A stretch of 63,327 nt of DNA, filler included, from Stramenopiles sp. TOSAG23-6 (taxonomy: Eukaryota), in assembly GCA_900128565.1 (NCBI GenBank). It is 45 parts of 45 records of this genome, joined end to end, with 100 filler letters (N's around TTAATTAATTAA, not from the genome) between each part and the next. Parts side by side here need not be neighbours in the genome. Positions count along the whole stretch, not along the records: positions 1,422 to 2,741 come from LT639250.1; positions 2,842 to 4,161 come from LT639251.1; positions 4,262 to 5,581 come from LT639252.1; positions 5,682 to 7,000 come from LT639253.1; positions 7,101 to 8,418 come from LT639254.1; positions 8,519 to 9,836 come from LT639255.1; positions 9,937 to 11,254 come from LT639256.1; positions 11,355 to 12,671 come from LT639257.1; 37 more parts are not named here. One strand, written 5' to 3'. Below, in pieces: positions 1,574 through 63,327 of this stretch. The notes beneath the pieces were generated by a model. That model saw only the letters and a program-made list of their open reading frames with translations, ran no database searches and was not told the origin of the DNA. Numbering within the stretch: position 1 is the stretch's first letter; each line of letters opens with the position of its first letter. Both the position numbers and the translations under genes were made by a program.

Positions 1574-1967
1574 ATGTGTGGTGGAGATAGTCATGGTAAA
1601 ATTGTTGATGCTATTCGGAATGGTGGCTGTGGACATCAATTTTTATGGGATAGTTTAAAACCTGCAAATACGTTTTATATAGGTATTGATGGGAAGAGAA
1701 GAAGTGGATTTGTACGTTTATATTCTTATTTTTTTAAATATTTTTTTTATACGAAATTTTATACCTAACAATTTCAAAAAAAAAAAAAAAAAAATATTTT
1801 TTTATATTATATATATCAAAAGAATATCGTTTATTAGCTTTACGAGCAGCGCGTGGTGAAATTTTAACCGCAGATGAAAAAAGTGGTAACAAAGCGAAAA
1901 AAAAACCAAAACAATTATGGTTGAGTTCTCCAGGTGTTCGTTTGGTTATTGAAGGAAATCCTGAAGG
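1574..1967 (+). CDS. Fragment with CG.D.HG...GGCGHQFLW motif, possibly the C-terminus of an RBR/IBR E3 ligase (exons 1574-1711, 1813-1967)
   Basis: Cys/His motif; the two exons join in frame across a GT-AT intron; mirrored at 2196-2589 by a fold-back. Confidence 0.5.
1712..1812 (+). other. Non-canonical GT-AT intron
   Basis: GTACGT donor, ATACCTAAC branch motif, no AG in the intron; first downstream AG (1822) gives a stop; AT end is 15 nt after AAATAT. Confidence 0.75.
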
Positions 1968-1984
1968 ATACGTTTTCAAAATTG

Positions 1985-2019
<35 letters not shown>

Positions 2020-2143
2020 ATTTAAAAAAAAAAAAAAAAAAAAAATTTTAAAAAAAATTTTTTTTTTTTTTTTAAAAAAAATTTTTTTTAAAAAAAAAAA
2101 AAAAATTTTTTTTAAAATTTTTTTTTTTTTTTTTTTTTTAAAT

Positions 2144-2178
<35 letters not shown>

Positions 2179-3235
2179 CAATTTTGAAAACGTATCCTTC
2201 AGGATTTCCTTCAATAACCAAACGAACACCTGGAGAACTCAACCATAATTGTTTTGGTTTTTTTTTCGCTTTGTTACCACTTTTTTCATCTGCGGTTAAA
2301 ATTTCACCACGCGCTGCTCGTAAAGCTAATAAACGATATTCTTTTGATATATATAATATAAAAAAATATTTTTTTTTTTTTTTTTTTGAAATTGTTAGGT
2401 ATAAAATTTCGTATAAAAAAAATATTTAAAAAAATAAGAATATAAACGTACAAATCCACTTCTTCTCTTCCCATCAATACCTATATAAAACGTATTTGCA
2501 GGTTTTAAACTATCCCATAAAAATTGATGTCCACAGCCACCATTCCGAATAGCATCAACAATTTTACCATGACTATCTCCACCACACATATATTGTACAA
2601 AACATTTTTGAAATATTTTGAAAATTAAATTTAAAAAAAAAAAAAAAAAAAAAATCGAAAAAAAAAAAAAAAAAAAATTTAAATTTTAAAAATTTTCAAA
2701 ATTTTAAATTTTTTTTTTAAAATTTTTTTTTTTTTTTTTTTNNNNNNNNNNNNNNNNNNNNNNNNNNNNNNNNNNNNNNNNNNNNTTAATTAATTAANNN
2801 NNNNNNNNNNNNNNNNNNNNNNNNNNNNNNNNNNNNNNNNNTATGAAACAAAAATCGAAATTGAAAAAAAAAAACACATATCATTATTAATTTATTTATT
2901 GTAGATGATGGAAAGAACACTTCTCTAAAGATTCTTAGATAAATGATCAAAATATTTTAGATGATGGAATCAAAATTTTTCGACGGAGAAATATTTCTAA
3001 TGCTCATTGAAGTGAATAAATTCTTGACTAAATTCTGCTCATAAAAGATCCATTTCCAATAAATGGTGCAGGAAATGGACTATTCATAGGTTTCATTTTT
3101 CGATTGTGTGTTTGAGGATGTTGATGAGCTCGATCGTGATTCTGTATTGCTTTACTTACTCTTGGAGGATGCAAAGCTCCACAAGGAGCAAACCCAGTAC
3201 GTGGATATTTTTTGTATAATTCACGTAATTTTCGA

Positions 3236-4161
3236 TCAAATATCTTTAGATAGCCTACCTGTAGATAACTTACTACGAGTTGTATCAAATCCTGAACGAG
3301 CACTCATTTGAATTCCAGTGTCTAAATATATAGGATTTCTACGAGCATGAAAAATACCAATATCAAAGTCAATTTGTAAATGCCTACCACAGCGATATTG
3401 CTTTCGAATTTCCCCAAAAATGTCAATTATAGCATATAATACTTTATCAACATCATATTTGTCATATCGATGACGTTTTCCTTTCCTATCTTTCCTATCT
3501 TTACGTCGTCGATGTTTTCCGTTATTTTTATGTACACTCACCGATGATGATGCATCTGTATTGACTATGTCATCCACCTTAATTCCGCTTCGTCTTGCGA
3601 TTGCTCTGGCAATTTTTTTATTAAATTTATCAAGTTTTGCAGCATTAGGTGGTGCAAAACCTTGCCGAAATCCAGTGTCCATTATAAATACTGGTCTAAA
3701 AATACGAACATCGCCTGGATCGATCTCCTTGAATTTTTGAGTTTTGCTCTTTTTATTGTTTCTTTCAAGATTATTGTTATTTTTCTTATGTCTACGTCTA
3801 CGACGTCTACTTCGATGAGTTGTACTACCTATAGTAGATCCACTAGACGGCAACGGTTTTGGAACTGGAACATCTGTAAGTGTGATTGATTTATAGTATT
3901 TACTACCAGGAACTACTTTTTTCCACACCATTTCTCCAAAGAAAGGAACTTTTATATTTTTTCGTTTTTCTAAATGAAAAAGCAACCATTGATTCAGAGA
4001 ATCCCATGTCTTGTTAATAATTTCTTTCTTCCTTTCTCGACCAGTACCGAATGGCTTTCCTTTATTATTTCGTTTGCGACATAAATCAAACGTCAACTGA
4101 CCATATTCATTATTTAATACATCTCTTAAAAGATCTTTTAATCTATAAGGCAATTTGTCAG
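3236..4161 (-). CDS. CCDC81-like protein (HU-CCDC81 domains), partial
   Basis: W..L..WL...LEKRKNIKVPFFGE...RPVFIM and IFGEIRKQ..CGRHLQIDFDIG resemble the two CCDC81 HU-like domains. Confidence 0.6.
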
Positions 4162-4350
4162 NNNNNNNNNNNNNNNNNNNNNNNNNNNNNNNNNNNNNNN
4201 NNNNNTTAATTAATTAANNNNNNNNNNNNNNNNNNNNNNNNNNNNNNNNNNNNNNNNNNNNTTAATTTGAAATTTTTTTTTTTTTTATAGTAAATTTTGT
4301 ACCTAACGATTTTTTTTAGATTTTTTTTGAAATATTTTTTTAAAATACAG

Positions 4351-5481
4351 GGAACATTACTGATTCAGTTTTTTTTCGTGAGACATTTGAAAATTCTCGA
4401 CATTCTGAACATTCAAACCAAAGAAATAATGGGGAACATTTTGAACAAGTTGAAAGAGATGATTGTTGTGGTTGTCTCATTTCAAATTATGTATGTTTTA
4501 TGTGGTTGAAATATTATTTTTTCCAAAAAAAATTTCCAAAAAAAATTCCAAAATTTTTTAACAAAGATTTCAAAAAAAAATTCCAAAATTTTTTAACAAA
4601 GATTAAATGTTGAAATTTCATCATACTACATTATAGAATGGTCATGCTAGTGCAGTGTTTGATGTTGATTTTTGTTCAAGTGGACAATATAAAGGCCATT
4701 TTTTTGCTACTGCATCTCTGGACAGAACTGCTCGGTTATGGTCAACACTTAGAAAACGTGCATTTCGTGTTTTTATAGGTCACACTAGCGATGTTAGTTC
4801 CATATCATTTCATCCAAATGGAACATCAATTGTTACAGGTTCAAGTGATAAAACAATCAAAATGTGGGATATTCGATGTGCTGAGGAAATTACAACTATT
4901 TCAGGTTTTACTTCTGAAGTTGATGTAATTGCAATTTCTCCTAATGGGAATCAAATCGCATCTTCAGGACATGGTTATAATTGTAAAATTTGGGATGTTC
5001 GAAATGTTCATCATTCTATATGTACGTTTTTATTTTTTTTTTTCTTTGGATACAAAACATACAAAATTTCATACCTAACCATTTAAAAAAAAAATCCTAA
5101 TTTTTTTTTTATTCCTAAAAAAATTAAAAAAAAAAAATTTTAAATTTTTTAAAAATCCTAAAAAAAATCCTAATTTTTTTTCTTTTTCCAAATTATTTCT
5201 TGACAATACAGTATGCAAAGGACATTCGGCAAAAATAAATTCTTTATGTTTTAGTCAAGACGCTGAAATTCTTGCTTCGGGGTCTCAAGATTGTACGTTT
5301 TCAGAATGAATTTAAAATTGTTTTTTTTTTCGTACGAAATTTTGTACCTAACAAATTTCGAATTTAATTTTCGGATTTGGTCTTGTAAAAGCCCTAACCC
5401 TAATAACACGTCTTTTGAATATAAAAGACAAATCTTTCAAAAACCAATTAATTCATGGAGAACAAAATATACTCCAGTCAT
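4351..5481 (+). CDS. TAF5-like WD40 protein, C-terminal part (exons 4351-4490, 4637-5021, 5212-5292, 5364-5481)
   Basis: FATASLDRTARLWS..RVFIGH.SDV..FHPNG..TGSSDKT..MWD and terminal TKYTPV match TAF5. Confidence 0.75.
5293..5363 (+). other. Non-canonical GT-AT intron
   Basis: Restores WD motif ASGSQDFNFRIWS; no AG between the branch motif (5328-5352) and the RIW codons. Confidence 0.7.
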
Positions 5482-5842
5482 GTACGTTTTCATCATGATT
5501 TTTTTTTTTTTCAATTTTTTATACATAATTTTTTTTTCGTACGAAATTTTGTACCTAACAATTTTTTTTTTTTTTTTTTTTNNNNNNNNNNNNNNNNNNN
5601 NNNNNNNNNNNNNNNNNNNNNNNNNTTAATTAATTAANNNNNNNNNNNNNNNNNNNNNNNNNNNNNNNNNNNNNNNNNNNNATGTATTTTGGAAAAATAT
5701 TTCAAAAAAAAAACTTAAATTTGTTAGGTACAAAATGTACTATAAAAAAAAAAATTCGATTTTTTTGTAAAAAAAAAAACTTAAATTTGTTAGGTACAAA
5801 ATTTCGTACGAAAAAAAAATTAAAAAAACAACTAAAACATAC

Positions 5843-5965
5843 ATAAAGACGACCTAAAAGAGACGCACAAACCATACCAATTCGACCGTGACCATGATGG
5901 GAATATTCGCCGTAGAGTGATATTTTTGAAAACTTTGAAAAATTAGAAGGTAAACATTTTTTATA

Positions 5966-6043
<78 letters not shown>

Positions 6044-6631
6044 GCATTGAAAAAACGTACAAATGTAAATCTTATTCTTTTTTACACTAAGCAATTTCTC
6101 AATTTGACAAAGAAAATTTCGAAATTTTGTTTCATCAGGACATTTGCCACGTGGCATAGGAAATCGTATATACACCAAATTATTTTTTTTTGGTAGTATA
6201 TTTAGTAGTTCTTTGGCTCTTTCATGTTTTGTGAAAAATATATAATTTTTTTTTCTTATATTGTTAGGTACAAAATTTCGTATAAAAAAAAAAAAAAAAA
6301 AAAAAAAANNNNNNNNNNNNNNNNNNNNNNNNNNNNNNNNNNNNNNNNNNNNNNNNNNNNNNNNNNNNNNNNNNNNNNNNNNNNNNNNNNNNNNNNNNNN
6401 NNNNNNNNNNNNNNNNNNNNNNNNNNNNNNNNNNNNNNNNNNNNNNNNNNNNNNNNNNNNNNNNNNNNNNNNNNNNNNNNNNNNNNNNNNNNNNNNNNNN
6501 NNNNNNNNNNNNNNNNAAAAAAAAAAAATTTCATATTTTTGTAAAAAAAAAAAATAAAACATACATCTTGCCATTTTTTGTTCTTCTGTTAGACTTTGAA
6601 CATTTGTAACGGCTATTTTTGCGCGTTCCAT
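5843..6631 (-). CDS. PTP/DSP-fold protein fragment lacking the catalytic Cys (IYIYSHHGHGRIG)
   Basis: YIRFPMP..KCPD..F and IYI-x-S-x2-GHGR-IG..ASLLGRLY resemble the HCxxGxGR P-loop; region spans an N gap. Confidence 0.6.
5905..6060 (-). other. Non-canonical GT-AT intron
   Basis: T|AT junction rebuilds the P-loop spacing; the AG alternative gives TAA; end is 15 nt after AAATAT. Confidence 0.75.
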
Positions 6632-8519
6632 ATAATGTAGAAAAATATTTCAATTTAAAAAAAAAATTTAAAATTTTTTTGTTAGGTACAAAATTTCGTA
6701 TTAAAAAAAAAAAAAAAAAAAACCTTATTAATTAAAANNNNNNNNNNNNNNNNNNNNNNNNNNNNNNNNNNNNNNNNNNAAAAAAAAAAAATTTCATATT
6801 TTTGTAAAAAAAAAAAATAAAACATACATCTTGCCATTTTTTGTTCTTCTGTTAGACTTTGAACATTTGTAACGGCTATTTTTGCGCGTTCCATATAATG
6901 TAGAAAAATATTTCAATTTAAAAAAAAAATTTAAAATTTTTTTGTTAGGTACAAAATTTCGTATTAAAAAAAAAAAAAAAAAAAACCTTATTAATTAAAA
7001 NNNNNNNNNNNNNNNNNNNNNNNNNNNNNNNNNNNNNNNNNNNNTTAATTAATTAANNNNNNNNNNNNNNNNNNNNNNNNNNNNNNNNNNNNNNNNNNNN
7101 AGTCTATACAGCAATCTAATCTCTAAAGTCTTACAAAAAGGTACGTTGTTCATTATTCACAATATTTCTAAACCACAATCAATAATCTATAACATATAAG
7201 CAAAAAATACAATACAAGTAAAACTAGCTTCAAAAGAGAAAAACGATACCGTAGAAAACGAATTATAAACGATTTATAAAAGTAACGTTACACAATCGAT
7301 AGACATGACCCAGAGGATGGAAAGAATATAGACGGAGAAGAAATTAAAAATCGTTTTAAAATATGATAATGCTGTGTATAACAATGAAATATCATATAGA
7401 GNCACCACAATGTTTCAACCCGTCGGTACAATAAAGCTCGACCTTGGAATCACTACAGTGAAACTATACTTCACTAGACCTCGACTTCATCTGGTCGGTC
7501 GACTGAAAGCCGACGTTGGATTTCAACTAGTTTTTACAGGGAAACTTGATATTGGAATACTGGTTAGACCACATGTCACTAAACAGTATTAATGAGAGAA
7601 CAAAATGAAACGAAGAAAAACTTGTACAAAAAGATGATCCTGTAGCGGGCATTTTCGAGGCATTTATTTTGACTCTTGTGTCAGTGGAGACTTACAATCA
7701 ACAGAATGAGTGATTTCATCACTTCATACAACATTCAGTTTGAATTTCAATGTGTCTGTAAATGATTAACTGGGACACTAAGCTAAAGGTATTACAACGT
7801 AGCCTGTCCTTCCAATATGTGATACCTCAGTCCACGTCAATTTTTGAATTCGTGTTTCTATAATATCCAACAAACCGTCCAGGAACGGAACCGATTATTT
7901 ATAACTTTTGGTTTGGTTTTTATTTGGTTTTTATTTGGTTTTTATTTGGTTTGGTACAAAAATTCTATATATAAAGATAGACAAGAAGAGTGTATTTCCA
8001 AAAGCAGGTTTGCTCTAAAAAATATAAATGCATTATTACATTTATCCACAGAATATCCTTTTGTGACATACCTATCTAAATGAGGTTGGTGTACTGTGCC
8101 AAGATAATATAGACATGCTATGTCATACATGGATATTCTCTGGAACAGTGTAATAATGCATTTATATTTTTATGAGATTTTGTGATTCTTGTGTCATTTC
8201 GTCGATAGCCTTTTTGGCCGTGCGTGATGCATAAAATGCCATGTAGTCCTTTAGGTACGAAATTTGATACAAAACAAAACTGACACTAACTTTCACTCTG
8301 TAGGTGCATCATAATGATCCAAATCACAATTTGCGTATATATCTATGCTCATTGATGTCTTTCTTCAAGTGTATCAAGTCCATGATGAAAATGAAGAAGT
8401 CATTCGAAGTTTGTTTGANNNNNNNNNNNNNNNNNNNNNNNNNNNNNNNNNNNNNNNNNNNNTTAATTAATTAANNNNNNNNNNNNNNNNNNNNNNNNNN
8501 NNNNNNNNNNNNNNNNNNA

Positions 8520-8550
<31 letters not shown>

Positions 8551-8626
8551 TAGTGTACAATGAAAAAAAAATCGTTAGGTACAAAATTTCGTACGAAAAA
8601 AAAATAGTGTACAATAAAAAACGGAC

Positions 8627-9700: not shown

Positions 9701-9736
9701 AAGATTTAGTTAGGTACAAAAAATTGTATGAATTTT

Positions 9737-9776
<40 letters not shown>

Positions 9777-10177
9777 GTTTAGGTAAAAAATTTCGTACGA
9801 AACCAAAAAAAAAAAAAAAAATCGAAATTGAAAAAANNNNNNNNNNNNNNNNNNNNNNNNNNNNNNNNNNNNNNNNNNNNTTAATTAATTAANNNNNNNN
9901 NNNNNNNNNNNNNNNNNNNNNNNNNNNNNNNNNNNNAGCTGGCATGATTTTTACAAAACCTCTGTAAAAATATCATTCATTTAGGAATTTAATGTGTACT
10001 AAATTAGTTTCACAAAACGTATTTTCTACACATATAAAAAAAAAATATTGTTTATATTTAATCTTGAATGATAATAAAAATGTTTTTTGTAAATATATCG
10101 TAAAATATAATCTAGTTTACATTCCAGTATTCAAATATCGTGTTTTATTAGAATTCAGATCCACAAATAAATTATGA

Positions 10178-11067
10178 TTATTTTTTTTTCCTTAGAATAC
10201 AAAGAAAGTCTCTATTGTAATATAAATTGGTTTCGTCTTTTGGGGTTTCTTGGACTATTTCTAAATCTGCTTTATTAGCCAGATGTCGTATAATATCAGG
10301 CGAAATAAAGTAAAAGCCTCCAACAGTAAAACGTTTTTGATTTGAAAACCTATTCCAACCGAGAGTAGAACAAATGTTTGCAGTCGATATAAAAGCAACA
10401 CCCGTATCAGACAACATTGAATGTATGTATTGTAAGTATTGCCATATGGTATGTACATCAACATGAACAAAAACGTCAAATGCATAAATAAAATCAAAAG
10501 ATTCGCGAAACTTTTCAAATGACTTTGCACTATAATCTTCCTTCAAATGACAAAAACTAATATGAGTTCCTTTTATCTCAGTATCAAGTCCTCTCAATGA
10601 CAAAGCTTTACGCGCACGTTTCAACATTTCCAGAGACATGTCAAATAACTGAAGACTCTTTGGCCTATAGCCATACGCCCACCACCACTTCCAATTTCGG
10701 CAACGCGAGTGTTTTCGTCGATATAGGGTTTTATAAAATCGCTGATTACTGTATCTAAAGCTGCACGGTCAGACCATTCCTCGCCAATAACTGGACTACT
10801 ACTCAAAGGGCTGCAACTTTCGCTGACATTTTTTATCATATTTTGTACCCAAGGCGCCTCCAAATTCCACTCTTTTGCATAAAGATCCCATAACTTTCGA
10901 TTGGTCAAGACATTTCCTGGGTCAACGTTAACTACTGCTCCACCGAGTTTTTTTAACATTTGCAAAACAAGAGGGGACGCATCACTGCGCGATACTTTAT
11001 CTAGGTGCTTATGAAAATCTTCGATAGGCTCATCAGACATATTAGAATGAGGGCGCACATCATCCAT
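10178..11067 (-). CDS. Class I SAM-dependent methyltransferase with a frameshift near 10665
   Basis: VAEIGSGGGR motif I, FDMSLEML motif II in a shifted frame, FDFIYAFDVFVH. Confidence 0.8.
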
Positions 11068-11759
11068 GATGTATATAACTTCTTCGAATCAAATATTTTC
11101 GTGACCTCAAGAATATAATAATTTAATAAACAGATAGTACTGTAGTAGTATTGTCGCTACTATGGTAAATTATCACTTTATCAAGTGTTTAGTGATGCTA
11201 AAGGTAATGCAACCGGGAAACTGCAATATTTGGCCAATATTTGTGAATTTGTGANNNNNNNNNNNNNNNNNNNNNNNNNNNNNNNNNNNNNNNNNNNNTT
11301 AATTAATTAANNNNNNNNNNNNNNNNNNNNNNNNNNNNNNNNNNNNNNNNNNNNAAAACTATATAAAGCAGTGAAACTAAAACTATATAAAGCAGTGAAA
11401 CTAAAACTACGCGTATAAGAAATTTCTCTATTTATGGTGCATTCATACGACACTGTTGCTAAAACCTCTTTGATTCAATATTTTAGAACCAATCTACTCA
11501 AATCACAAAATATACCTAGAAGAATGGTAATGTTTTATATATTTTGGCTCTATGGCTATTTTGGGGGTACTCTCTACACAGTATACAGCTAGGAACTAGC
11601 TTGAAACAATAAGACGGATGTTTCTGTCATGACTTGATTGATAAAGACCGCGTGAGTCCGTGACACGTGTCACAAAAAAGTCAGCAAAAAAATAAAAGAA
11701 ATTCCAAAAGTTACACACAAAGTCAAAGTGGGTACGTATATAAATAATTAGACAAGAAA

Positions 11760-12671
11760 ATGTCTGTATTTGGGACACAATGCTTTATTAATCCTATACG
11801 AAAACAAATGCATTCTAATAAAAAACCATGGCTGGCATTTCAGCGTATATTTCGTCGATTTCAGAGTACATCACCGTTAAAGTTACAAGTAAGACATACA
11901 AGGAACAAAACTGAGAAAAATGCAATAAACAAACATTTTTTTAAAGTAGCTCTAGTAGGACGTCCTAACGTTGGGAAATCAACTCTATATAACCGTCTAG
12001 TTGGTGGTAGACCAGCGATTTGTCACCGAGAACCAGGTACGACTCGAGACCGGCAAGAAGGAACTGCTTGGCTTGCAGGTCTTCAATTTACAGTCGTAGA
12101 CACAGGAGGACTCGAAGAAGGTGGTGAGGAAACCATGGAAGGCAAAATTACTCGGGCAACTGAGTTAGCTATTGAAGAATGCGATGTCGCCATTTTAATG
12201 CTTGATGCTCGTGCTGGTGTAACTTCATTAGATGAACATTTTGTTCGATGGATTCGTAAACGATCGGATAAAACGCCAATGCATATGGTCCTAAATAAAA
12301 CTGAAGGTTTTTTCGATCGGGTACAAGAATATGAAGACGGTTGGATCGAACCTGAAGATTCTCGTTGGTTACAACTGAATTCTGATATTCAACGTCTTGG
12401 ATTCTCTAATCCAGTGGCTATATCTGCAGAGCATGGTACTGGAATGGTGGATTTGTGGCATTTATTATACCCTCATTCTAAAATTACGTCTGAAATGGTG
12501 AAAAGTGATGAAAAGTTTGATTTATCCTCTTCAAGTATTGAAATCAGTAATAATTTGAATAATTTAAATATGAATGTAACACTTAACGATCAAGATGACG
12601 AATTACACGATGACTACAATTTTGAGGAATTTGAATCTCAAAATAAAAACAATGCCAATTTTGAGGAATTT
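11760..12671 (+). CDS. der: EngA/Der ribosome-biogenesis GTPase with N-terminal presequence-like extension (3' partial), copy 1
   Basis: VALVGRPNVGKSTLYNRL, PGTTRDR, DTGGL, NKTE and ISAEHG; basic N-terminus suggests mitochondrial targeting. Confidence 0.92.
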
Positions 12672-52299: not shown

Positions 52300-53111
52300 A
52301 CAATACTTACACGTACATCAACGAATCTCTATCCAAAAATACATAATGTACTGATTCGTATTAAATACGTCCAATATGCATTACAAAAAACTTTTGTATT
52401 TCTAAATAACAAAAAGTGGCGCCAACCTGTAGATCATAGAGTAAATATTTGTATGTTTTTTTTTTTCAATTGTGAATGTTTTGTGAATGTTTTTTTCGTA
52501 CGGAATATTGTACTTAACATTTTTTTTTTGAAATATTTTTCCAAAATATTTGTGGAGTCCTTCGATTTAAAATGCAGCATGTAGTTTCTGCGATTCAAAC
52601 ATATATTGTTAATCAAATTAAACATAAAGCTTGGAGAAAGTTAAACACTGCTGTGAGAAGTATAAGTCAATCAAATGATATTATTTTTTCAGTGAATGTT
52701 TTAAAAGATGCCCATTTCGAATATATTCAACACATTGCATCTCATTGCTTTGTGATACCGAATGAAAGAAACATTATCCTAAAAAATCGTATAGATTCGT
52801 GCTTTGAGTGCATTATTCGGTTTTGTGATTTAATTCGATCTAATCAAGTAAATCATATGATGACTGGTAATGGAATTGTTTCTTTACATTGTACAATGAC
52901 AGCAGCTATGAGACCAGCAGGTATGAAGGAACAAGAGCTTTTTATTCGTGCAGTTTTGACTACATCAAGAGAATTTCAATCACTACAAAAAACTCTTTGT
53001 CAAGNNNNNNNNNNNNNNNNNNNNNATTTATTAAATACTCGTTTTGATGATAGGATTAGTGGATTTCATTCTGATTGTCCGCTCCGACAATTGGTTTTAT
53101 CTATTACTTGA
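52300..53111 (+). CDS. Gamma-tubulin complex component (GCP family) C-terminus
   Basis: Y.KI...LIRIKYV.YAL, LRFKMQHVVSAIQTYI..QI...W and LKDAHFEYI..I..HCF. Confidence 0.7.
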
Positions 53112-56327: not shown

Positions 56328-56461
56328 NNNNNNNNNNNNNNNNNNNNNNNNNNNNNNNNNNNNNNNNNNNNTTAATTAATTAANNNNNNNNNNNNNNNNN
56401 NNNNNNNNNNNNNNNNNNNNNNNNNNNTTTTCAATTTAGAATTTATTTTTCCAAAATACAT

Positions 56462-57340
56462 AACCCTGTGAAACTGCTCGTTCCTCTTCTTGTAACAAAT
56501 ACGCTTTGTACTGCTGTAGCACATACGTTTTCAAAATTGAATTTTTTACCATTTTCAAATTTTTTTTTTCATCGTAAATTTTACACCTAACTTTTTTTTT
56601 TTTTTAAACCAAAAAATAATATTTTTTCATAATACATTAACCGTATTTGAGAGACCTGATCCTAGAGCAAATTTGCATAGCTATGGCGAAGCTATTTATC
56701 TTTCACTGATTACAATGTCAACAGTCGGCTATGGGGATTACTACCCAGTTACATTTTTTGGTCAACTCAGTATTATATTTGGAGGTGTCATTGGGGGAAC
56801 ATTACTAGCTACTCTTTTAATTACAGTATTTGTGAATAAAAGTGCGACCTCACACCAAGAAGATTATGTCATTAACATTGTACTCAGAAGAAAATGGAGG
56901 AAAAAGCTTAGGGACAATGCTGCATCTGTAATACAATGTGCCTTTAAAGCAAGACTACTACAAATTAAAAGAGATCGTGGAAATAAAAGAGTCACCAATG
57001 AAATGCAAAAGATACATCAAAAATTATTTTCCAGTATACAAAACATGCGGAGAGTAAGGCTTCAAAGGCCTGACGATCAAACAGATCGACAAATCCAAGA
57101 TGAATGGACAGAAAGTATTCGAAGGATATTATTGACTTTAACTGGTGAGAAGAGTCCAGTCTTTAAAAGATCTGGGAAATCGAGTTCTATAGTAGAAACT
57201 AATGTGACAATACTAGAACTGATGGATAATGTGCGAAAAAGACAAGATAAGTTAGAAGCTCTCACAAATGAACTTACGGGAGTTGCAGCGCTGCTTCAAC
57301 AGAAAATATCATTGAAAAAAAAGAACTACAAACAAAAAAA
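56462..57340 (+). CDS. SK/KCNN-like potassium channel (S5, pore, S6, CaM-binding region); exons 56462-56522 and 56638-57340
   Basis: ITMSTVGYGDYYPVTFFG pore and AASVIQCAFK CaM-binding-like segment. Confidence 0.88.
56523..56637 (+). other. AT-AT intron
   Basis: ATACGTTTTC donor; C|TA gives P...FER spacing equal to KCNN S5; end is 15 nt after AATAT. Confidence 0.78.
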
Positions 57341-57387
57341 NNNNNNNNNNNNNNNNNNNNNNNNNNNNNNNNNNNNNNNNNNNNNNN

Positions 57388-57686
57388 TTACCATCTCGTT
57401 GACCTAGCTCTTCCACGTAATAAATATTGCATTGCATCAACTAAAGAATAACTACTAATACTGTCTATCACCCATCTATAATCTACAACCTGTATGATTT
57501 CGTTTTGATTCATTTCTTTGAGATTTCGTGGTAAATGTCCAGCTGTAAGCGCAGAATCACAAACAACGATTGATGAAGAAAACGATTTTCCTTCAGACTT
57601 TGAATTTTCAATTAACTGTTCAATTGTCCAAGCTATTACGCCTCCACCTAACTGCGCAAGACCATTCAGTACGGATTTAGAAGGAC
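57388..57686 (-). CDS. Terminal exon with BRCT-like domain
   Basis: LGGGV...IVVCD...VVDYRWVIDSISSY.L....Y; preceded by the branch motif and ...AATACAT. Confidence 0.6.
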
Positions 57687-59355
57687 ATGTATTGTGAAAA
57701 AAAAAATGTATAAAATTCGTTAGGTATANNNNNNNNNNNNNNNNNNNNNNNNNNNNNNNNNNNNNNNNNNNNTTAATTAATTAANNNNNNNNNNNNNNNN
57801 NNNNNNNNNNNNNNNNNNNNNNNNNNNNCAAATATTTTTTTTTTTTTTTTTTTTGGTCATCGTGTGCGCTAACCAATACAACATTACGAGCTAGTGTAAA
57901 TAGTTTTTGGTATAAGTTCACACTGGGTTTTGTTTGACTTTGATAAATTGTAAATGAATCATCTGTTTTACCATTAAGTTTGCATCCAAAAAATATACGA
58001 GGCGGAATACTCACACCATCAATTGATGCATGTTTCATTAATTCAAATAGTCTTGTTTTAGGGTCAAGAAGTTCAGGGTCATTCTTTTTCCAACACAAAC
58101 CTTCTCTGGAACAATCCTCATATAATTTGCCAATTCCAGAGGACCACAGTAAATTCAATACATCATCTATACATGTATTTAATTCTTGTTTATAACGCTG
58201 TCACAGTGTTCTTCAATTACTACACAAGGGTCTTCTTCTAGTCTAAAGATAATACTTTTTTTGTTGGGCATATCTAGCATGACAGGAACTTGTAAATCAT
58301 TCCTTGGCTTGCTCTTTTGCCGTCGGGCAACGGAAAGCCTTGTTGTTAGAACAATACATAGAAATACACTGAAATCGAATGGAATTATTATCATTGTACA
58401 TTGTAATATAACACTCTGCGTTCCTACAGCCGTGTTTTTGGTGATGATTCTAAAAAAAAAACAGTCAGTAAACTGCTTAGAAAAAATTTAATNNNNNNNN
58501 NNNNNNNNNNNNNNNNNNNNNNNNNNNNNNNNNNNNNNNNNNNNNNNNNNNNNNNNNNNNNNNNNNNNNNNNNNNNNNNNNNNNNNNNNNNNNNNNNNNN
58601 NNNNNNNNNNNNNNNNNNNNNNNNNNNNNNNNNNNNNNNNNNNNNNNNNNNNNNNNNNNNNNNNNNNNNNNNNNNNNNNNNNNNNNNNNNNNNNNNNNNN
58701 NNNNNNNNNNNNNNNNNNNNNNNNNNNNNNNNNNNNNNNGCTGACTCATGTTTTTCTCATGGGGATTTTGCAAATGCACGTAATCATCTCGACCGTTCCT
58801 TAGACATATTTTCAGGGATGCCGTCTAGTGTGGAAAGTAAATATATGGTAAATGCCGTAAAGCGACGTATAGTTGGGGTTTGTGAAATGATAGGCGATGT
58901 AGCAGAAGGTGAAAGGTTGTTGCTTGAGATTCTTTCTTCGGAGCTCGGAAGCGAGGAAGAATATCTTATGAAACGCTGCATATCCCGCCTTTATATTCAA
59001 CAAAATAGACCAAGTGAAGCTCTCAAATATCTTTCGAAAATGTCAGACGTTGAGTTAGATTCCACTGTTGACAGGGTTAGTGCTAGAGTAGAAGATCTTA
59101 TTTTACTTGGTATAGTTAATAGTATGGATNNNNNNNNNNNNNNNNNNNNNNNNNNNNNNNNNNNNNNNNNNNNTTAATTAATTAANNNNNNNNNNNNNNN
59201 NNNNNNNNNNNNNNNNNNNNNNNNNNNNNTAGATTTTTTTTTACAATGTTCAAATCAAAAAAAAAAAATTGTAGATTTTTTTTTTCTTTTTTTTTTTCGT
59301 AGTACATTTTGTACCTAACGAATTTCAAATACATAAATATTTTTTACTATATATA

Positions 59356-60529
59356 TCGCTTGGAGATTGCTGTACAGGACTTTAACAATGTTGAAAAAAC
59401 TCAAAACGACACAAATGACAGGTACGTTTTAAAACTTTTTATGTATCATTTGTTTTATATAGAAATATATATATTTTTTTTAATTTCGTACGAAATTTCA
59501 TACCTAACAAAAACAAATTAAAATTTTTGAAAAATGTTTTGAAATATTTCCCCAAAAAAACATATTGACACCAAATGATCAAAATACAGGTCAACATTCA
59601 AAATCATCAAAATCATCAAAAACAACAGTAAAGAGTAATTCACAACAACAGGTATTACAAAGTGAAGGACACACTGACAACAGTTCTGTTCCATCAACTG
59701 AAACAGAACACACTGACAACAGTTCTGTTCCATCAACAGAAACAGGACACACTGACAACAGTTCTGTTCCATCAACAGAAACAGACAAAGAAGAAAAAAA
59801 TAGTTCTGTTCCATCAACAGAAACAAAAACAAAAACAAACACAAACACAGAAGAAAAAGCAAAAGAAAAAAATGAAAATGAAAATGAAGAAACACAACAA
59901 CACAAAGAAGAAGACAGTGAGAGATTGGCTTTACTTCATAATGTAGAGGATAAATTAGATAGCATTATTCAGAATGGTATCAATGGTAAAGCATCAGGAG
60001 GACCAAAAGAACAACCAGCAGCAGAACAAGCAGTAACAGCAAAACCAACAAAACAACCAGCAGCAGAACAATCAGCAACAGCAAAACCAACAGAACAACC
60101 AGCAGCAGAACAACCAGCAAAACCAACAGAACAACCAGCAAAACCAACGGAACAACCAGCAGCAGCAACTGAACAACCAACAGCAGAACAACCAGCAACA
60201 GCAACAGAACAACCAGCAGCAACAGCAAAAGCAACAGAACAACCAGCACCAGAACAAGCACCATCATCAACAGCAAAACCACAACCTACACCAGTGGTAT
60301 CTAGAGCATTTCGTTTTGTTGCGTAGGTTCGTTTTTTATATGAAATGTCATACTTTTTTTTTTTTTGTACGAAATTCTGTACCTAACAAAAAAAACAAAT
60401 TTTTGGAATATTTTTCCAAAATACATGCAGAAGCTTGGAAACCTTCCAAATTAGAAAATATTGATGAATATATACGATATGCAGCTTATTGGATTGAAAT
60501 CGTAAAATTACTTGCTGGCCCTGGTGTCT
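59356..60529 (+). CDS. Repeat-rich protein (HTDNSSVPSTET x3, EQPA repeats), multi-exon
   Basis: Long ORF with 42-bp and EQPA repeats; GT-AT intron 59422-59563. Confidence 0.55.
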
Positions 60530-60670
60530 NNNNNNNNNNNNNNNNNNNNNNNNNNNNNNNNNNNNNNNNNNNNTTAATTAATTAANNNNNNNNNNNNNNN
60601 NNNNNNNNNNNNNNNNNNNNNNNNNNNNNTACGAAAAAAAAATTCGAATTTGAAAAAAAATAAAACGTAC

Positions 60671-61793
60671 ACTAAATTTTTCAGGTGTTGGTGGGATATT
60701 CAAAATATGTGTTTTTGAATCATTATTATTCACTACTGTTGATATTCCTCTAGATTTAAACCGAAATAAATCATATACATTTTGATCTGATTTTGGAACA
60801 TTTGTACTATTTTCAGAATGTTTTTGAAAAAATTGATCTGATTTCGGAACATTTGTATTATTTTCAGAATGTTTCGGCGGCTTTAGTGTCTGATATAAAA
60901 ATATGCTTGTGCGATCAGCAGCAGAAAGAATTGAATCTGTAGAAATAGGCGTTTTAAATCCTAACTCTGAATTCTTTCCGTTTTTATCAAAATCTGTAGA
61001 AATAGGCGTTTTAAATCCTAACTCTAAATTCTTTCCGTTTTTATCGATATTATTCATAGTTTTATTACTCAATTGAGAATTCTTTACGTTTTTATCAATA
61101 TTATTCATAGTTTTATTACTCAATTGAGTTAATTGAGTACTTGTTTTATCAGTAGATTTGTCTTTTGAAGATCTAAAAGAAGAAAAACGAAAGAACCTTA
61201 TATCTTCTTGTTGTTGCATTTTGGCAACTTTTCTTGTTTGATGACCACGTTGAATAGCTTGAATTTTTGTTGCAGCTTCCTCCTGTTGTTGTTCACTTTT
61301 TTTTTTTTCTTTGTTTTCTTTGTTTTCTTTTTTTCTTTGTTTGTTCCATTCAAGAAATTTTCCCGCTTCATTTGGTTTTTGTTCGTTCCATATATTAAAT
61401 AGTTTTTCAAATATTTCTACATATTCATTTGCCATTGTAATTAAATTTGTATCTGTTGTAGAGATTGTTTTTTTATTATCTTTCAACAATTCAACTAACT
61501 TGTTAAATTGAGGCATTTCACTTGAATAGTAGTCTTTAATTACACCATTAAAATACTTTAATTTTTTTTTTAATTTGTCACCAAGGTTAATTGAAGGAGT
61601 ATTGTTTTTATACATCATTAAAGCAAGTCGGTAATATTTACAAAACTCTTTCATCTTAAATTTTAATTCGTTACTCATGTATTTTGGAAAAATATTTCAA
61701 AAAAAAAATTGTTAGGTACAAAATTCCGTACGAAAAAAAATCATACAAAAAAAAAAATCAAACATACATTTTGTCTGCTTTTTCTTGTGCTTT
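60671..61793 (-). CDS. IQ-motif protein fragment
   Basis: AATKIQAIQRGHQTRK; GT-AT intron 61677-61767. Confidence 0.65.
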
Positions 61794-62106
61794 GTATTGT
61801 GAAGAAATATTTTTTTATTCAATGAATCGTTAGGTATGAAATGAACCATTAAAAAAAATATATATGTAAAAAAAAAAAAGTTGTAGAAGAAAAATTTAAA
61901 AAAAAATTAAAAAAAAAAAAAATTAAAANNNNNNNNNNNNNNNNNNNNNNNNNNNNNNNNNNNNNNNNNNNNTTAATTAATTAANNNNNNNNNNNNNNNN
62001 NNNNNNNNNNNNNNNNNNNNNNNNNNNNAAATATTTCAAAAAAAAATCGTTAGGTACAAAATTTCGTACGAAAAAAAAATCGACTTTGAAAAAAAATAAA
62101 ACATAC

Positions 62107-63327
62107 GTGTACATTATAATCTCCATCACCAAGTAGAGTGTTTAATCTTTTCATTCTTTGTTGATCCCATTTTCTATCATTAAAATCTATGAAACGAATT
62201 GATGGACTGCCATCTGTATGAACTCCGCCAATACAAAAGAAAGAGGAATCATTGACGTCATTTGTTTGAAGGAAATTACAACACGTATACGTATTTTGGA
62301 AAAATATTTTAAAAATGTTTTTGTTAGGTACAAAATTTCGTATGAAAAAAAAATTAGAATTTGAAAAAAAATTAAAACATACACTGAGGATCGCGAGATG
62401 TAGAAGGTTCCCATATTAAAGGCGGCTCTTCACTGCCTTGGTTATTTAGTATTGTTGGTGCACTTGGAACAATATGTGATTTTCTAGTCCACGCTGCATC
62501 TGAAGCACGTGTTATTACTATACCGTTAGTTCCTTGTGGCATATGATAATTTATTATATTATCTGCAGTTTGGTTATGTGTTACATTTCGTTTTTTCGCT
62601 TGTGATGTCTTCTGTTCCGACATACGTTTTGATTTATTCGATAATTCTTTTGCTGCTGCTGCAAAAGCACTTGAAGCACATTCATATTCAATATCTTGAT
62701 CATTTATACACATTAATTCTGGTTCATTTGTCAATTGAAGATTTTGAATGTGTGTTATTTTTCTTCGCAATATATATTGTGAAGAAATATTTTTTTTTTT
62801 TAAATACAATTTTTGTTAGGTACGAAATTTCGTACGAAAAAAAAATTAGATAAAAACGTACATATCCAATGATAAAACCCAACCACGATCAAGAACACAT
62901 ATCATTTGTGTTGGATCACTATTTGGTATGCTAATATTTCGTATATTCACTTTCCGTAAAGATTTTGGAAGCAAACGACAAAATTCAGATGTTTCAATTT
63001 TAAAAAACATCTTCGGAATTCTTTTAGCTCCGAATGTTGGTACAGAAAGTTTTCTAATATCGTATCCAATTACACCTGTAGATGTACTACAATATACTTG
63101 ATTATAATGACCTATAGCTAAATTATTGATACGTATCTTTTTTGAAGTATTTTGAGATGACGTATTTATCTGATCTGAAAAAAGAGGGCGTTTTGATGAA
63201 CACCGAATGTCCCAAAGTCTAATCATTCCATGTACATCAACTGCAACAATACTATTTCCACCACGTACAGAATTACTATTGAAGCATTTCATACCGATAG
63301 TACCAACACGAGATCCGTTATTATTTG
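62107..63327 (-). CDS. WD40-repeat protein, internal exons
   Basis: G.IRLWDIR and VIGYDIR; introns 62772-62861 (GT-AT) and 62289-62382 (GT-GT). Confidence 0.65.

What the first reader, a model, noticed from the sequence alone, without database searches (positions are those of the whole stretch)
1712..62861. A genome in which most introns end in AT instead of AG (dominant GT-AT intron class)
Seen: across unrelated contigs, introns with an ordinary-looking GTAYGT donor lack a usable AG acceptor, and only a YAT or AAT end restores the frame. Strongest cases use conserved motifs: TTLL FFPKT|WPLP (17986-18133) and NT|WS (17677-17856); PP2C LNKH|HTP (30610-30766, which cannot slide because the exon ends in C); kinesin EA|SRRSAGH..SSRSH (35787-35910); DENN EGK|LLVVSS (50376-50512); TAF5 GSQD|FNFRIW (5293-5363); PTP IYI|YSHHGHGR (5905-6060). 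Further cases: 1712-1812, 25723-25864, 25959-26066, 29069-29185, 36223-36335, 49731-49862, 59422-59563, 61677-61767, 62772-62861. Canonical GT-AG introns (4491-4636, 5022-5211, 20400-20506, 22151-22354, 35424-35592) are the minority, mostly share the same internal motifs and often sit in the same genes. Established: U2-type splicing almost always requires AG (read by U2AF35 and Prp8, with a G+1/G-1 terminal pairing). Inference: one spliceosome here has relaxed 3' terminal recognition. I do not know of this architecture as the majority intron class in any genome.
Basis: partly seen in the sequence, partly recalled or inferred. Interest (0 to 1): 0.95.

Follow-up and report, generated by a model that had tools for sequence, protein, structure and literature searches.

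The report
Introns ending in AT, not AG
In these fragments of an uncultured, AT-rich marine eukaryote, about seven in ten introns begin with the normal GT but end in AT instead of the near-universal AG, which would be a rare large-scale break of the splicing rule if RNA data confirm it.

Summary
The window is 45 contigs of about 1.3 kb from an AT-rich eukaryote. I catalogued 26 complete introns in the non-duplicate contigs: 18 end in AT, 6 in AG, 1 in TT and 1 in GT. With 14 further acceptor-only ends, 29 of 40 ends are AT.

Two AT junctions in a kinesin gene are confirmed residue by residue by orthologues of 65-66% identity, with no gap at either junction. One TTLL junction is exactly collinear with mouse TTLL6 and has no canonical alternative. 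When 3' ends were defined by motif alone, 10 of 13 T-ended introns restore the reading frame only at that exact end.

Nearly all these introns are copies of one repeated, introner-like element. It has a yeast-like GTAYGT donor, a CTAAC branch box and a tail ending YAT, or less often YAG. The last intron base is only T or G.

No RNA evidence could be obtained, and no spliceosome parts could be inspected. The likeliest reading is major-spliceosome splicing that accepts U or G as the last intron base. Forty papers mention GT-AT; none of the 30 listed, by title and abstract, reports it as a dominant class.

The parts
36223..36335 (-). GT-AT intron in the kinesin gene (GTACGT...AAACAT), phase 1
   Evidence: Orthologues P0001-3, P0020 and P0021 (65-66% identity) align without a gap across GGG[C]EFGARD. 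The split codon C is conserved in 3 of the 5 (A in P0001 and P0020). An AG alternative at +12 would delete the conserved CEFG. An identical copy lies at 37630-37742.
35787..35910 (-). NT-AT intron in the kinesin gene (NTATGT...TTGTAT), phase 1
   Evidence: Orthologues read VEA[S]RRAAGH with no gap. The equal-length GT-AG alternative would give X-I instead of the conserved S-R. A copy lies at 37194-37317.
35424..35592 (-). GT-AG intron in the same kinesin gene (control)
   Evidence: The junction TRKS|GVKGER is collinear with the orthologues.
17986..18133 (-). GT-AT intron in the TTLL gene (GTATGT...ATTCAT), phase 1
   Evidence: The upstream exon ends at TTLL6 residue 99. The next exon has residue 2 at TTLL6 residue 102, so the split codon W falls at 100, with no indel. 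No canonical alternative of equal length exists. Frame class 0 gives 45 codons against 17-26.
17677..17856 (-). GT-AT intron in the TTLL gene (GTAAGT...AAACAT), phase 1
   Evidence: Collinear with TTLL6 (residue 41 = 138; next exon residue 7 = 147). Frame class 0 gives 52 codons against 13-17. Caveat: a GT-AG alternative at +4/+4 has the same length.
30610..30766 (+). GT-AT intron in a PP2C-like gene; its boundaries cannot slide
   Evidence: Frame class 0 gives 92 codons against 3-19. The first exon matches Pfam PP2C. The junction could not be fixed by PDB alignment. A copy lies at 41863-42019.
50376..50512 (+). GT-AT intron in a DENN gene; a CAG 5 nt upstream of the end is out of frame
   Evidence: Frame class 0 gives 70 codons against 8-9. 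The exon pieces abut in the DENN profile at 109 and 116, within 2 positions. The skipped AG is listed.
49731..49862 (+). GT-AT intron between the uDENN and DENN exons
   Evidence: Frame class 0 gives 68 codons against 13-14. Pfam finds uDENN and DENN on the two sides.
5293..5363 (+). GT-AT intron (71 nt, ends CGAAT) in a WD40 gene
   Evidence: The upstream exon matches WD40 profile positions 8-32. FNFRIW then completes the repeat with the expected spacing, which is inference.
5905..6060 (-). GT-AT intron before a phosphatase-like loop
   Evidence: Only phase 1 is open on both sides, with 83 and 67 codons. The Pfam PTPlike_phytase hit is weak.
1712..1812 (+). GT-AT intron (ends TATAT)
   Evidence: Phase 0, with 78 and 70 open codons. 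No homologue was found. A mirror copy lies at 2351-2451(-) because contig 2 is a perfect palindrome.
25723..25864 (+). GT-AT intron (donor GTAAAT) in an RTEL1-like helicase gene
   Evidence: Open frames of 22 and 57 codons. The element tail ends ACAATACAT. Weak.
25959..26066 (+). GT-AT intron (ends TTTAT) in the RTEL1-like gene
   Evidence: Frame class 0 gives 43 codons against 12-20. The downstream exon starts at ARCH_RTEL1 profile position 66.
26201..26368 (+). GT-AG intron (GTATTT...AAAAG) in the RTEL1-like gene
   Evidence: Read from the sequence. Phase 2, with 54 and 115 open codons.
29069..29185 (-). GT-AT intron with the non-consensus donor GTTTCT
   Evidence: Phase 2, with 68 and 150 open codons. 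An AG 5 nt before the end is skipped. No homologue was found. Weak.
52451..52551 (+). GT-TT intron in a GCP6-like gene, flanked by the 10-nt direct repeat AAATATTTGT
   Evidence: Frame class 0 gives 75 codons against 5-11. GCP_C profile: the upstream exon reaches about 152 and the next exon has residue 3 at 156.
56523..56637 (+). AT-AT intron (ATACGT...ATACAT) in a K+ channel gene
   Evidence: The spliced frame reads ...LCTAVA|LTVFERPDP...TVGYGD without a stop. The boundaries cannot slide.
59422..59563 (+). GT-AT intron
   Evidence: Frame class 0 gives 39 codons against 4-28.
61677..61767 (-). GT-AT intron; an in-frame AG lies 3 nt downstream
   Evidence: The element tail scores 42 of 50. The upstream exon is only 15 codons, so the frame test favours another class, which is an F-rich read-through. 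Weak.
62772..62861 (-). GT-AT intron (90 nt, minimal form of the element)
   Evidence: Frame class 0 gives 133 codons against 13-16.
62289..62382 (-). GT-GT intron (tail AAAATACGT)
   Evidence: Frame class 0 gives 79 codons against 15-34. No Pfam family was found.
20893..21018 (-). Possible GT-AT intron
   Evidence: Two frame classes are open, 49 and 48 codons. Weak.
20400..20506 (-). GT-AG intron of the same element (tail CACAATATAG)
   Evidence: The AG end is in frame, with 153 codons against 12-27.
22151..22354 (+). GT-AG intron of the same element
   Evidence: The AG end is in frame, with 75 codons against 17-49. A copy lies at 23565-23768.
4491..4636 (+). GT-AG intron in the WD40 gene
   Evidence: Phase 0, with 49 and 149 open codons.
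5022..5211 (+). GT-AG intron in the WD40 gene
   Evidence: Phase 1, with 128 and 32 open codons.
18219..18337 (-). 3' part of an intron ending ATACAT at 18219; the donor lies off the contig
   Evidence: The TTLL exon ISRKYRMARR... starts right after it and aligns to TTLL6 ICRKDLLAR.
33958..34016 (+). 3' part of the element ending ACAATACAT at 34016, followed by CAG
   Evidence: In other copies in runs X3 and X7 the sequence reads TTTTTTCACAATACAT and then diverges.
48014..48071 (+). 3' part of the element ending CATAATACAT; an open frame of 55 codons follows
56428..56461 (+). 3' part of the element ending AAAATACAT; the K+ channel exon follows

Best explanation
These are genuine spliceosomal introns of one abundant, introner-like repeat family. 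A minimal copy is about 90 nt and reads GTAYGTTTT, T-rich filler, CGTACGAAATTTTGTACCTAAC, T-rich filler, GAAATATTTTTYCAMAATAYAT.

Shown: the 5' end is a yeast-type major-spliceosome donor (G1 T2 A3 Y4 G5 T6). CTAAC is an optimal U2-type branch box, lying 35-57 nt from the end in 18 of the 22 introns that have one. The 3' end follows the classical Y-A-G pattern except that the last base is T in about three quarters of introns. Removing exactly GT...AT restores conserved reading frames.

Inferred: the major spliceosome of this organism accepts U or G, but not A or C, as the last intron nucleotide at the second catalytic step. A plausible reason is that U as well as G can make the non-Watson-Crick contact with the first intron G. 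Either U2AF35-type AG reading is lost or changed, or the site is chosen late, as in budding yeast. The element's spread then made AU the commonest 3' end.
For: - Kinesin orthologues of 65-66% identity, whose ORFs fill about 95% of 1.8-kb contigs, align without a gap across two AT junctions and one AG junction. The junction residues are conserved.
- The TTLL exons are collinear with TTLL6, with no indel at two AT junctions.
- With 3' ends defined by motif only, 10 of 13 T-ended introns restore long frames only at the exact end; 2 are ambiguous and 1 is contrary.
- In the profile of 26 introns, +1 is G in 24 and +5 is G in 23. Position -2 is A in 24. Position -1 is T in 20 and G in 6, and never A or C. 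Position -3 is C in 14, T in 7, A in 5 and G in 0.
- AT and AG introns share genes, and 4 of the 6 AG introns share the 3' tail motif of the AT introns.
- The element's 16-mer occurs 82 times against 3.7 expected.
- Other copies in an independent seawater DNA run and an independent RNA run also read ...CACAATACAT and then diverge, so the T is not a base-call error of this assembly.
- In-frame AG alternatives would delete conserved residues.
Against: - No RNA junction was seen. The RNA runs cover intergenic parts and hold the intron repeat at high depth, so they look like DNA or pre-mRNA.
- Good-looking AGs 4-5 nt upstream of the used AT are skipped at 50376-50512, 29069-29185 and 49731-49862. 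This is odd if AG is still read.
- Earlier AT dinucleotides in the tail are also skipped, so the rule that picks the site is unknown.
- One TT end and one GT end exist.
- The PP2C and DENN junctions could not be fixed to the residue.
- Positions +7 to +9 (TTT), and A at -9 and -7, are also conserved. A minor-spliceosome-like or fused branch/3' signal is therefore not excluded.
- No snRNA or splicing protein could be inspected.
Confidence: 0.68

Rival explanations
1. The introns are removed by a transformed minor (U12-type) spliceosome. That spliceosome is known to tolerate GT-AT and AT-AN ends and to rely on strongly conserved 5' and branch motifs rather than on AG.
For: GT-AT is a recognised, if rare, U12-type class. 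It accounts for 7 of 66 non-canonical U12 introns in PMC1557818 (passages read) and 17% of non-canonical introns, which are mostly U12-type, in Physarum (preprint passages). Here the donor is conserved to +9: GTAYGTTTT against the U12 consensus GTATCCTTT, which I recall. A is conserved at -9 and -7. There is no pyrimidine tract next to the 3' end. One AT-AT intron exists.
Against: Positions +5 and +6 are G and T (23 and 26 of 26), not C and C. That fits U1/U6 pairing, not U11/U6atac pairing (inference from recalled consensus). The clear branch box is CTAAC, at 35-57 nt from the end in 18 of the 22 introns that have one, not TCCTTAAC at 10-26 nt. No minor snRNA could be searched for.
Confidence: 0.12
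2. The segments are not removed by a spliceosome. They would be removed either at DNA level, as ciliate-style eliminated sequences are, or by a structure-guided RNA pathway, as in euglenid or Amoebophrya non-conventional introns.
For: They are copies of a mobile-looking repeat. In one case the intron is flanked by a 10-nt direct repeat (52451-52551, read from the sequence). Precedents exist for most introns being non-canonical (PMC7789003 passages).
Against: The standard genetic code fits long ORFs. The ends are not TA-bounded. Direct repeats at the junctions are 0-5 nt and inconsistent (my reading). Sixteen introns folded alone gave z-scores from +1.0 to -2.7, with no common pairing of the ends. 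The donor, the branch box and the -3 preference are classical spliceosomal signals.
Confidence: 0.05
3. The boundaries are misplaced, or the genes are dead. Real splicing would use AGs elsewhere, or the contigs would be pseudogenes or amplification artefacts.
For: The assembly is a fragmented amplified genome with chimeras: contig 2 is a perfect palindrome and several contigs are duplicates. Several cases have nearby in-frame AGs, at +3 for 61677-61767 and +9 for 62772-62861. One has an equal-length GT-AG alternative (17677-17856).
Against: Orthologue and TTLL6 alignments exclude the AG alternatives at the best-tested junctions. Eighteen of 26 introns cannot all be lethal. The frame test points the same way. 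The same tail is seen in independent runs.
Confidence: 0.06

Closest known systems
Rare GT-AT introns of animals, plants and Physarum, mostly U12-type, with a few U2-type such as human and mouse DGCR2
   Same: The same terminal dinucleotides. They are shown elsewhere to be spliceable (PMC1557818, passages; preprint 10.1101/2020.10.12.336362, passages).
   Different: There they are a handful per genome, or 17% of the 0.8% of Physarum introns that are non-canonical, and they carry the RTATCCTT donor. Here they are 18 of 26 introns and carry a GTAYGT donor and a CTAAC box.
Non-canonical introns of the tunicate Fritillaria borealis lineage
   Same: The genome-wide majority of introns break the GT/AG rule and are still handled by the major spliceosome. 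Duplicated U2AF subunits read non-canonical 3' ends (PMC13326754, abstract only).
   Different: In that lineage both ends are changed; that the ends are AG at the 5' side and AC, AT or AA at the 3' side is my recollection, not read here. It is an animal. Here the donor is fully canonical and only the last base differs. No U2AF data exist for this organism.
Introner elements and non-canonical introns of Amoebophrya
   Same: A marine protist in which repeated, transposon-like introns spread, and in which more than 60% of introns are non-canonical (PMC7789003, passages).
   Different: Amoebophrya introns have no consensus dinucleotides. They have inverted repeats forming a hairpin and 3-5 nt direct repeats, and the genes are 54-58% GC. 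Here there is a sharp consensus, no hairpin and 20-39% GC.
Introners of Micromonas, Aureococcus and many other eukaryotes
   Same: One intron family present in many genes, of short uniform length, carrying its own splice signals (PMC12130899, passages).
   Different: Published surveys accept 3' ends AG and AC only and start from annotated introns. No AT-ended family is described there. I found no clear terminal inverted repeats, target duplication or transposase here.
Budding-yeast-type U2 introns (GTATGT ... TACTAAC ... YAG)
   Same: The donor hexamer and the CTAAC core of the branch box; a strong consensus (yeast consensus recalled, not from a call).
   Different: The last base is T rather than G in most copies.

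Membership tests
U2-type (major) spliceosomal intron | 5' splice site GTRNGT, able to pair with U1 and U6 | tested here: met
   G1 in 24 of 25 readable, T2 in 26 of 26, A3 in 25 of 26, G5 in 23 of 26, T6 in 26 of 26.
U2-type (major) spliceosomal intron | Branch box of CURAY type upstream of the 3' end | tested here: met
   CTAA[CAG] is present in 22 of 26 introns: 35-57 nt from the end in 18, 5-13 nt in 3 and 99 nt in 1 (56523-56637 read). The branch itself was not mapped.
U2-type (major) spliceosomal intron | 3' end YAG | tested here: not met
   Only 6 of 26 end in AG and 20 end in T. The Y and A parts are kept: -3 is never G and -2 is A in 24 of 26.
U2-type (major) spliceosomal intron | Removal from RNA at these sites, with a lariat | not testable with these tools
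   The one read-laying allowed showed no joint. Runs were found.
U12-type (minor) spliceosomal intron | 5' splice site RTATCCTT | tested here: not met
   Positions +5 and +6 are G and T, not C and C. The U12 consensus is as quoted.
U12-type (minor) spliceosomal intron | Branch motif TCCTTAAC about 10-26 nt from the 3' end | tested here: inconclusive
   CCTAAC lies at 35-57 nt in 18 of the 22 introns that have it. A conserved A at -9 and -7 could be another branch. No U12 snRNA is available to compare.
Introner (transposon-derived intron family) | Many introns in unrelated genes share one sequence | tested here: met
   The 16-mer occurs 82 times against 3.7 expected. See the alignment of 16 introns. 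In DNA run X3 the repeat stands at depth 17,690 against 7.25 for single-copy sequence.
Introner (transposon-derived intron family) | Terminal inverted repeats, target-site duplication or an autonomous copy with a transposase | tested here: inconclusive
   Junction repeats are 0-5 nt and inconsistent, with 10 nt in one case. GTAT/ATAC is only a 4-nt inverted repeat. No transposase was seen in the window. The element is absent from three public collections beyond chance.
Euglenid or Amoebophrya-type non-conventional intron | The intron ends pair in a stable stem and there are no consensus borders | tested here: not met
   Fold z-scores range from +1.0 to -2.7 with no common terminal stem. The borders have a sharp consensus.
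Ciliate internal eliminated sequence | TA-bounded DNA segments in a germline nucleus, often with a variant genetic code | tested here: not met
   The ends are GT and AT, and long ORFs are open under the standard code.

The most novel reading that the evidence does not exclude
A free-living marine eukaryote has re-specified the 3' splice site of its major spliceosome from AG to A(U/G). An invasive introner carrying AU has made GU-AU the dominant intron class. The G-G terminal contact and AG reading by U2AF35 and Prp8, treated as near-invariant, would then be dispensable in a natural lineage. AGs lying a few bases upstream are ignored, which would mean that the site is chosen by something other than scanning for the first AG.
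Probability: 0.5. Interest if true: 0.9.

Novelty: new variant of a known kind. Interest (0 to 1): 0.8.

Why it matters
The terminal AG of introns is among the most constant signals in eukaryotic genes. Gene finders, spliced aligners and introner surveys assume it. Published introner screens accept only AG or AC ends.

A lineage in which most introns end in AU, with an otherwise textbook donor and branch box, would have three uses. It would be a natural experiment on second-step 3' splice-site selection: which contacts are truly required, and what replaces U2AF35. It would be a case where standard annotation of the genome fails almost completely. And it would be a new example of a mobile intron family reshaping splicing signals.

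The organism occurs in seawater metagenomes from 2024, so material for testing exists.

Tried and rejected
**RNA evidence**
- The look-up of sequencing runs listed 3 seawater metatranscriptome runs holding 5-10% of the words.
The RNA contigs lie at depth 2-3 on coding and intergenic parts alike, and at depth 1,600-3,200 on the intron repeat. They do not show splicing either way.

**Orthologue and structure searches that found nothing useful**
- DENN exon: near lengths, none; all representatives, one weak hit.
- GCP exon: longer lengths, none.
- PP2C exons against PDB: one weak hit and no hit.
- Kinesin middle exon and GCP upstream exon against PDB: nothing.

**Collection scans for the element**
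- Genome contigs gave 31 single hits in bacterial MAGs, viral contigs gave 6, and metagenome contigs gave 3.
- All are single matches in unrelated records, which I take as chance.

**Other dead ends**
- No whole genome is held and there were no Rfam matches, so snRNAs and splicing factors could not be checked.
- The Atlas search with Sar1 gave no taxon.

**Alternative boundary readings**
- Sliding to TG...CA is possible only where the exon ends in T (13 of 17 GT/NT-AT introns) and impossible at 30610, 49731, 59422 and 25723.
- Sliding to AT...AC is possible in only 2 introns.
- 5'/3' end pairing, checked by eye on the tails, is inconsistent.
- A target duplication of AT holds for only 6 of 16.
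- I rejected each of these as the general rule.

**Literature**
- Searches found no report of a dominant GT-AT class, judging the listed papers by title and abstract. Subscription journals and supplements were not searchable.

Full report
**What the window is.** The 63,327 bases are 45 contigs of 1,299-1,321 bases. They are joined by spacers of 44 N, TTAATTAATTAA and 44 N. GC is 20-39% per contig. Several contigs are copies of each other:
- 9, 10 and 11 are identical.
- 16/17 and 26/27 are 99.8% identical.
- 22 and 30 carry the same ORFs.

Contig 2 is a perfect palindrome, a typical chimera of whole-genome amplification. Many contigs end in poly-A/T or inside the intron repeat described below. 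Long ORFs are open under the standard code. No whole genome is held and no Rfam family matches. I left the duplicates (contigs 10, 11, 17, 27, 30) out of all counts.

**The observation.** They have GTAYGT-like starts and AT or AG ends. The first base of 35787-35910 is an N. At every claimed junction only one of the three phases leaves long open frames on both sides.

The 3' ends share a tail, GAAATATTTTTYCAMAATAYAT. The AG introns carry the same tail ending in ...ATAG or ...ACAG.

I added five complete introns: 26201-26368 (AG), 52451-52551 (TT), 62289-62382 (GT), 56523-56637 (ATACGT...ACAT, that is AT-AT) and 20893-21018 (AT, weak). That makes 26 in all:
- 16 GT-AT
- 1 NT-AT
- 1 AT-AT
- 6 GT-AG
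- 1 GT-TT
- 1 GT-GT

Fourteen further 3' ends have a donor that lies off the contig or is uncertain: 11 AT, 2 AG and 1 TT. Overall 29 of 40 ends are AT.

**Is the boundary real? Homology.**

Kinesin (contig 26). A search with the third exon returned 17 proteins. The best, P0001-P0003, and their cluster mates P0020 and P0021, are orthologues. The ORFs of P0020 and P0021 (565 and 557 residues) fill contigs of 1,788 and 1,810 bases, so they look like transcripts. I joined the four exons by coordinates in a script and aligned the model to these proteins. Identity is 65-66% over 237-252 aligned residues. There is no gap at any of the three junctions:
- GGG[C]EFGARD at 36223-36335 (AT). The split-codon C is conserved in P0002, P0003 and P0021; P0001 and P0020 have A.
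- VEA[S]RRSAGH at 35787-35910 (AT). S and R are conserved.
- TRKS|GVKGER at 35424-35592 (AG control).

The equal-length GT-AG alternative at 35787-35910 would replace the conserved S-R. The AG at +12 of 36223-36335 would delete CEFG.

TTLL (contig 13). Three exons were searched separately against PDB.
- The first exon ends at residue 99 of mouse TTLL6 (FFPKT on FFPRT).
- The second has residue 2 on 102 and residue 41 on 138.
- The third has residue 7 on 147.

With one split codon at each junction, both are collinear with no indel. For 17986-18133 no canonical pair gives the same length. For 17677-17856 a GT-AG pair shifted by +4/+4 does, so that case is not decisive.

Profile coordinates agree for three more introns:
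- WD40 at 5293-5363.
- DENN at 50376-50512, where pieces end at 109 and resume at 116, within 2 positions of expectation.
- GCP_C at the TT-ended 52451-52551.

PP2C could not be fixed. The first exon aligns only weakly to one PDB chain and the second not at all.

**Is the boundary real? A test without homology.** I fitted a 25-nt consensus of the tail to both strands, which defines 3' ends without looking at reading frames. I paired each end with a GTA[CTA]GT donor within 450 nt. I then asked which acceptor shift (-2 to +2) gives the longest frame open on both sides.

Thirteen such T-ended pairs do not span an N gap. The results were:
- In 10 the exact motif end wins clearly. Examples are 92 codons against 3-19, 133 against 13-16 and 70 against 8-9.
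- In 2 the result is ambiguous (6630-6827 and 20893-21018).
- In 1 another class wins (61677-61767). Its upstream exon is only 15 codons, and the rival frame is an F-rich read-through of intron sequence.

By my own binomial arithmetic with a null of 1/3, 10 or more of 13 has P of about 0.002. I dropped one pair before counting (6224-6564), because it spans 208 N. The consensus used ends in AT, which favours AT ends slightly in detection but not in the frame test.

**Not a sequencing error.** The introns lie on both strands. In the one read-laying allowed, contigs of an independent seawater DNA run (X3, 2024) and of an RNA run (X7, 2022) that carry other copies of the element read TTTTTTCACAATACAT and then diverge. 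X3 also holds 34135-35210 of contig 25 in one contig, with a single differing letter and one replaced 57-letter stretch. The organism is therefore present in that sample.

**Anatomy.** An alignment of 16 introns gives the element:
- GTAYGTTTT
- a variable T-rich stretch
- TTTTTTCGTACGAAATTTTGTACCTAAC
- a T-rich stretch
- TTTGAAATATTTTTYCAMAATAYAT

Minimal copies are 90-94 nt. Longer ones repeat the middle unit. The 16-mer AAATTTTGTACCTAAC, allowing up to 3 mismatches, occurs 82 times against 3.7 expected. In run X3 the repeat stands at summed depth 17,690 against 7.25 for single-copy sequence, which suggests thousands of copies, though other organisms may contribute.

The profile of the 26 introns is as follows.

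| Position | Bases |
|---|---|
| exon -1 | T in 19 |
| +1 | G in 24 |
| +2 | T in 26 |
| +3 | A in 25 |
| +4 | C in 12, T in 11 |
| +5 | G in 23 |
| +6 | T in 26 |
| +7 to +9 | T in 22-25 |
| -9 | A in 24 |
| -7 | A in 23 |
| -3 | C 14, T 7, A 5, G 0 |
| -2 | A in 24 |
| -1 | T 20, G 6, A 0, C 0 |

The introns are 50% T, 34% A, 9% C and 7% G, so the absence of A at -1 is not a matter of composition. CTAA[CAG] occurs in 22 of the 26 introns. It lies 35-57 nt from the end in 18 of them, 5-13 nt in 3 and 99 nt in 1 (56523-56637). Introns folded alone show no common terminal stem, with z-scores from +1.0 to -2.7.

**What it most likely is.** The donor (GTAYGT) and the CTAAC core are the signals of major-spliceosome introns of the budding-yeast type; that consensus is recalled, not from a call. 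The C>T>A, never G, preference at -3 and the A at -2 are the first two letters of the classical YAG. Only the last letter differs, and it is restricted to T or G.

AT and AG introns sit side by side in the same genes, and 4 of the 6 AG introns have the AT introns' tail. The simplest reading is therefore one spliceosome that accepts U or G at the last intron position, plus an introner-like element that carries U there and has multiplied.

Which steps are shown:
- The DNA boundaries.
- That removing exactly these segments is needed to restore conserved proteins.

Which steps are inferred:
- That removal happens at RNA level.
- That the major spliceosome does it.
- That a U can replace the G that contacts the first intron G at the second step.

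**What does not fit neatly.** At 50376-50512 a CAG preceded by seven T lies 5 nt upstream of the used CAT and is out of frame. At 29069-29185 and 49731-49862 an AAG lies 5 and 4 nt upstream. Earlier AT dinucleotides in the tail are also passed over. The site is thus not simply the first AG or the first AT after the branch. One TT end and one GT end suggest that even the A at -2 can vary. The conserved A at -9 and -7 and the T run at +7 to +9 may be ancestry of the repeat or may be signal.

**Rivals.**
- A transformed minor spliceosome is the serious one. GT-AT is a known U12-type variant (PMC1557818, passages; Physarum preprint, passages). But +5 and +6 are G and T rather than C and C, and the branch box is of U2 type and usually far from the end.
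- DNA elimination or structure-guided excision is unlikely. The code is standard, the borders have a consensus and there is no stem.
- Misplaced boundaries or dead genes are excluded at the best-tested junctions and are implausible for 18 of 26 introns.

**Known or new.**
- The search 'GT-AT' plus 'introns' found 40 papers, 30 of them listed. In the two I opened at those passages the class is rare. For the rest I saw only titles and abstract openings, none of which reports a dominant GT-AT class.
- Genomes where most introns break the GT/AG rule are known. The Fritillaria lineage has 95%, with U2AF paralogues reading odd 3' ends (PMC13326754, abstract). Amoebophrya has more than 60%, with no consensus and hairpin introners (PMC7789003, passages).
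- A recent introner survey accepts AG and AC 3' ends only (PMC12130899, passages).

I found no report of a dominant GT-AT class with canonical donor and branch signals. Subscription journals and supplementary files were not searchable. I could not name the organism, so a lineage-specific paper may exist.

**Limits.**
- The sample is 40 non-duplicate short contigs of a fragmented amplified assembly that tends to break in this repeat. 'Most introns of the genome' is therefore an extrapolation.
- RNA evidence is missing.

Noticed in passing
window 728-739, 5392-5403, 26507-26518, 32958-32969, 45802-45813, 49650-49661, 50382-50393 and others: The telomere-type 12-mer TTAGGGTTAGGG, allowing up to 1 mismatch, occurs 19 times against 0.05 expected. 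It is almost always exactly two units and no longer array occurs. It often lies inside coding exons, where it reads NPNP on one strand or (V/L)GLG on the other, for example in the PP2C, DENN, WD40 and RTEL1-like genes. One copy sits just after the donor of intron 50376-50512. Origin unknown.
   Followed up: partly
window 38179-39485 (contig 28): An eEF3/ABC-F-like gene of 38% GC without the intron repeat. It is read in three successive frames. The stretch that should hold the Walker A loop appears to be missing between ...GYKYGIIA and PTQDEVRSIF... (read by eye, with the family consensus recalled). It may be a damaged copy, an amplification chimera or DNA of another organism.
   Followed up: no
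window 1422-2741 (contig 2): The contig is exactly its own reverse complement, a hairpin chimera typical of multiple-displacement amplification. Its intron therefore appears twice, at 1712-1812(+) and 2351-2451(-).
   Followed up: yes
window 52441-52560: The TT-ended intron 52451-52551 is flanked by the 10-nt direct repeat AAATATTTGT, so its boundaries can slide over 10 positions. It is the only intron here with such a long junction repeat.
   Followed up: partly
inside most introns, e.g. 30696-30721, 26004-26024: The middle box CGTACGAAATTT(T/C)GTAC is a near-perfect or perfect palindrome lying directly before the CTAAC branch box. It could form a small hairpin in RNA or be a protein-binding site of the mobile element.
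   Followed up: no
window 11355-15505 (contigs 9-11): Three identical contigs encode a Der/EngA-type GTPase. It has an N-terminal extension and an N-rich tail. I recall this bacterial-type GTPase as organelle-targeted in plastid-bearing eukaryotes. That is a possible hint on the organism's biology, but it was not tested.
   Followed up: no
window 34895-35000, minus strand, upstream of the Sar1 start: A GTACGT hexamer followed by TATTAAC and several possible CAT or AG ends lies in the likely 5' UTR of Sar1. It would be a frame-free test of acceptor choice, but the RNA contigs did not cover it.
   Followed up: partly
window 10621-10768 (contig 8): Two overlapping ORFs of a methyltransferase-like gene lie in different frames on the minus strand. 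This suggests a one-base indel or a very short intron without the repeat.
   Followed up: no
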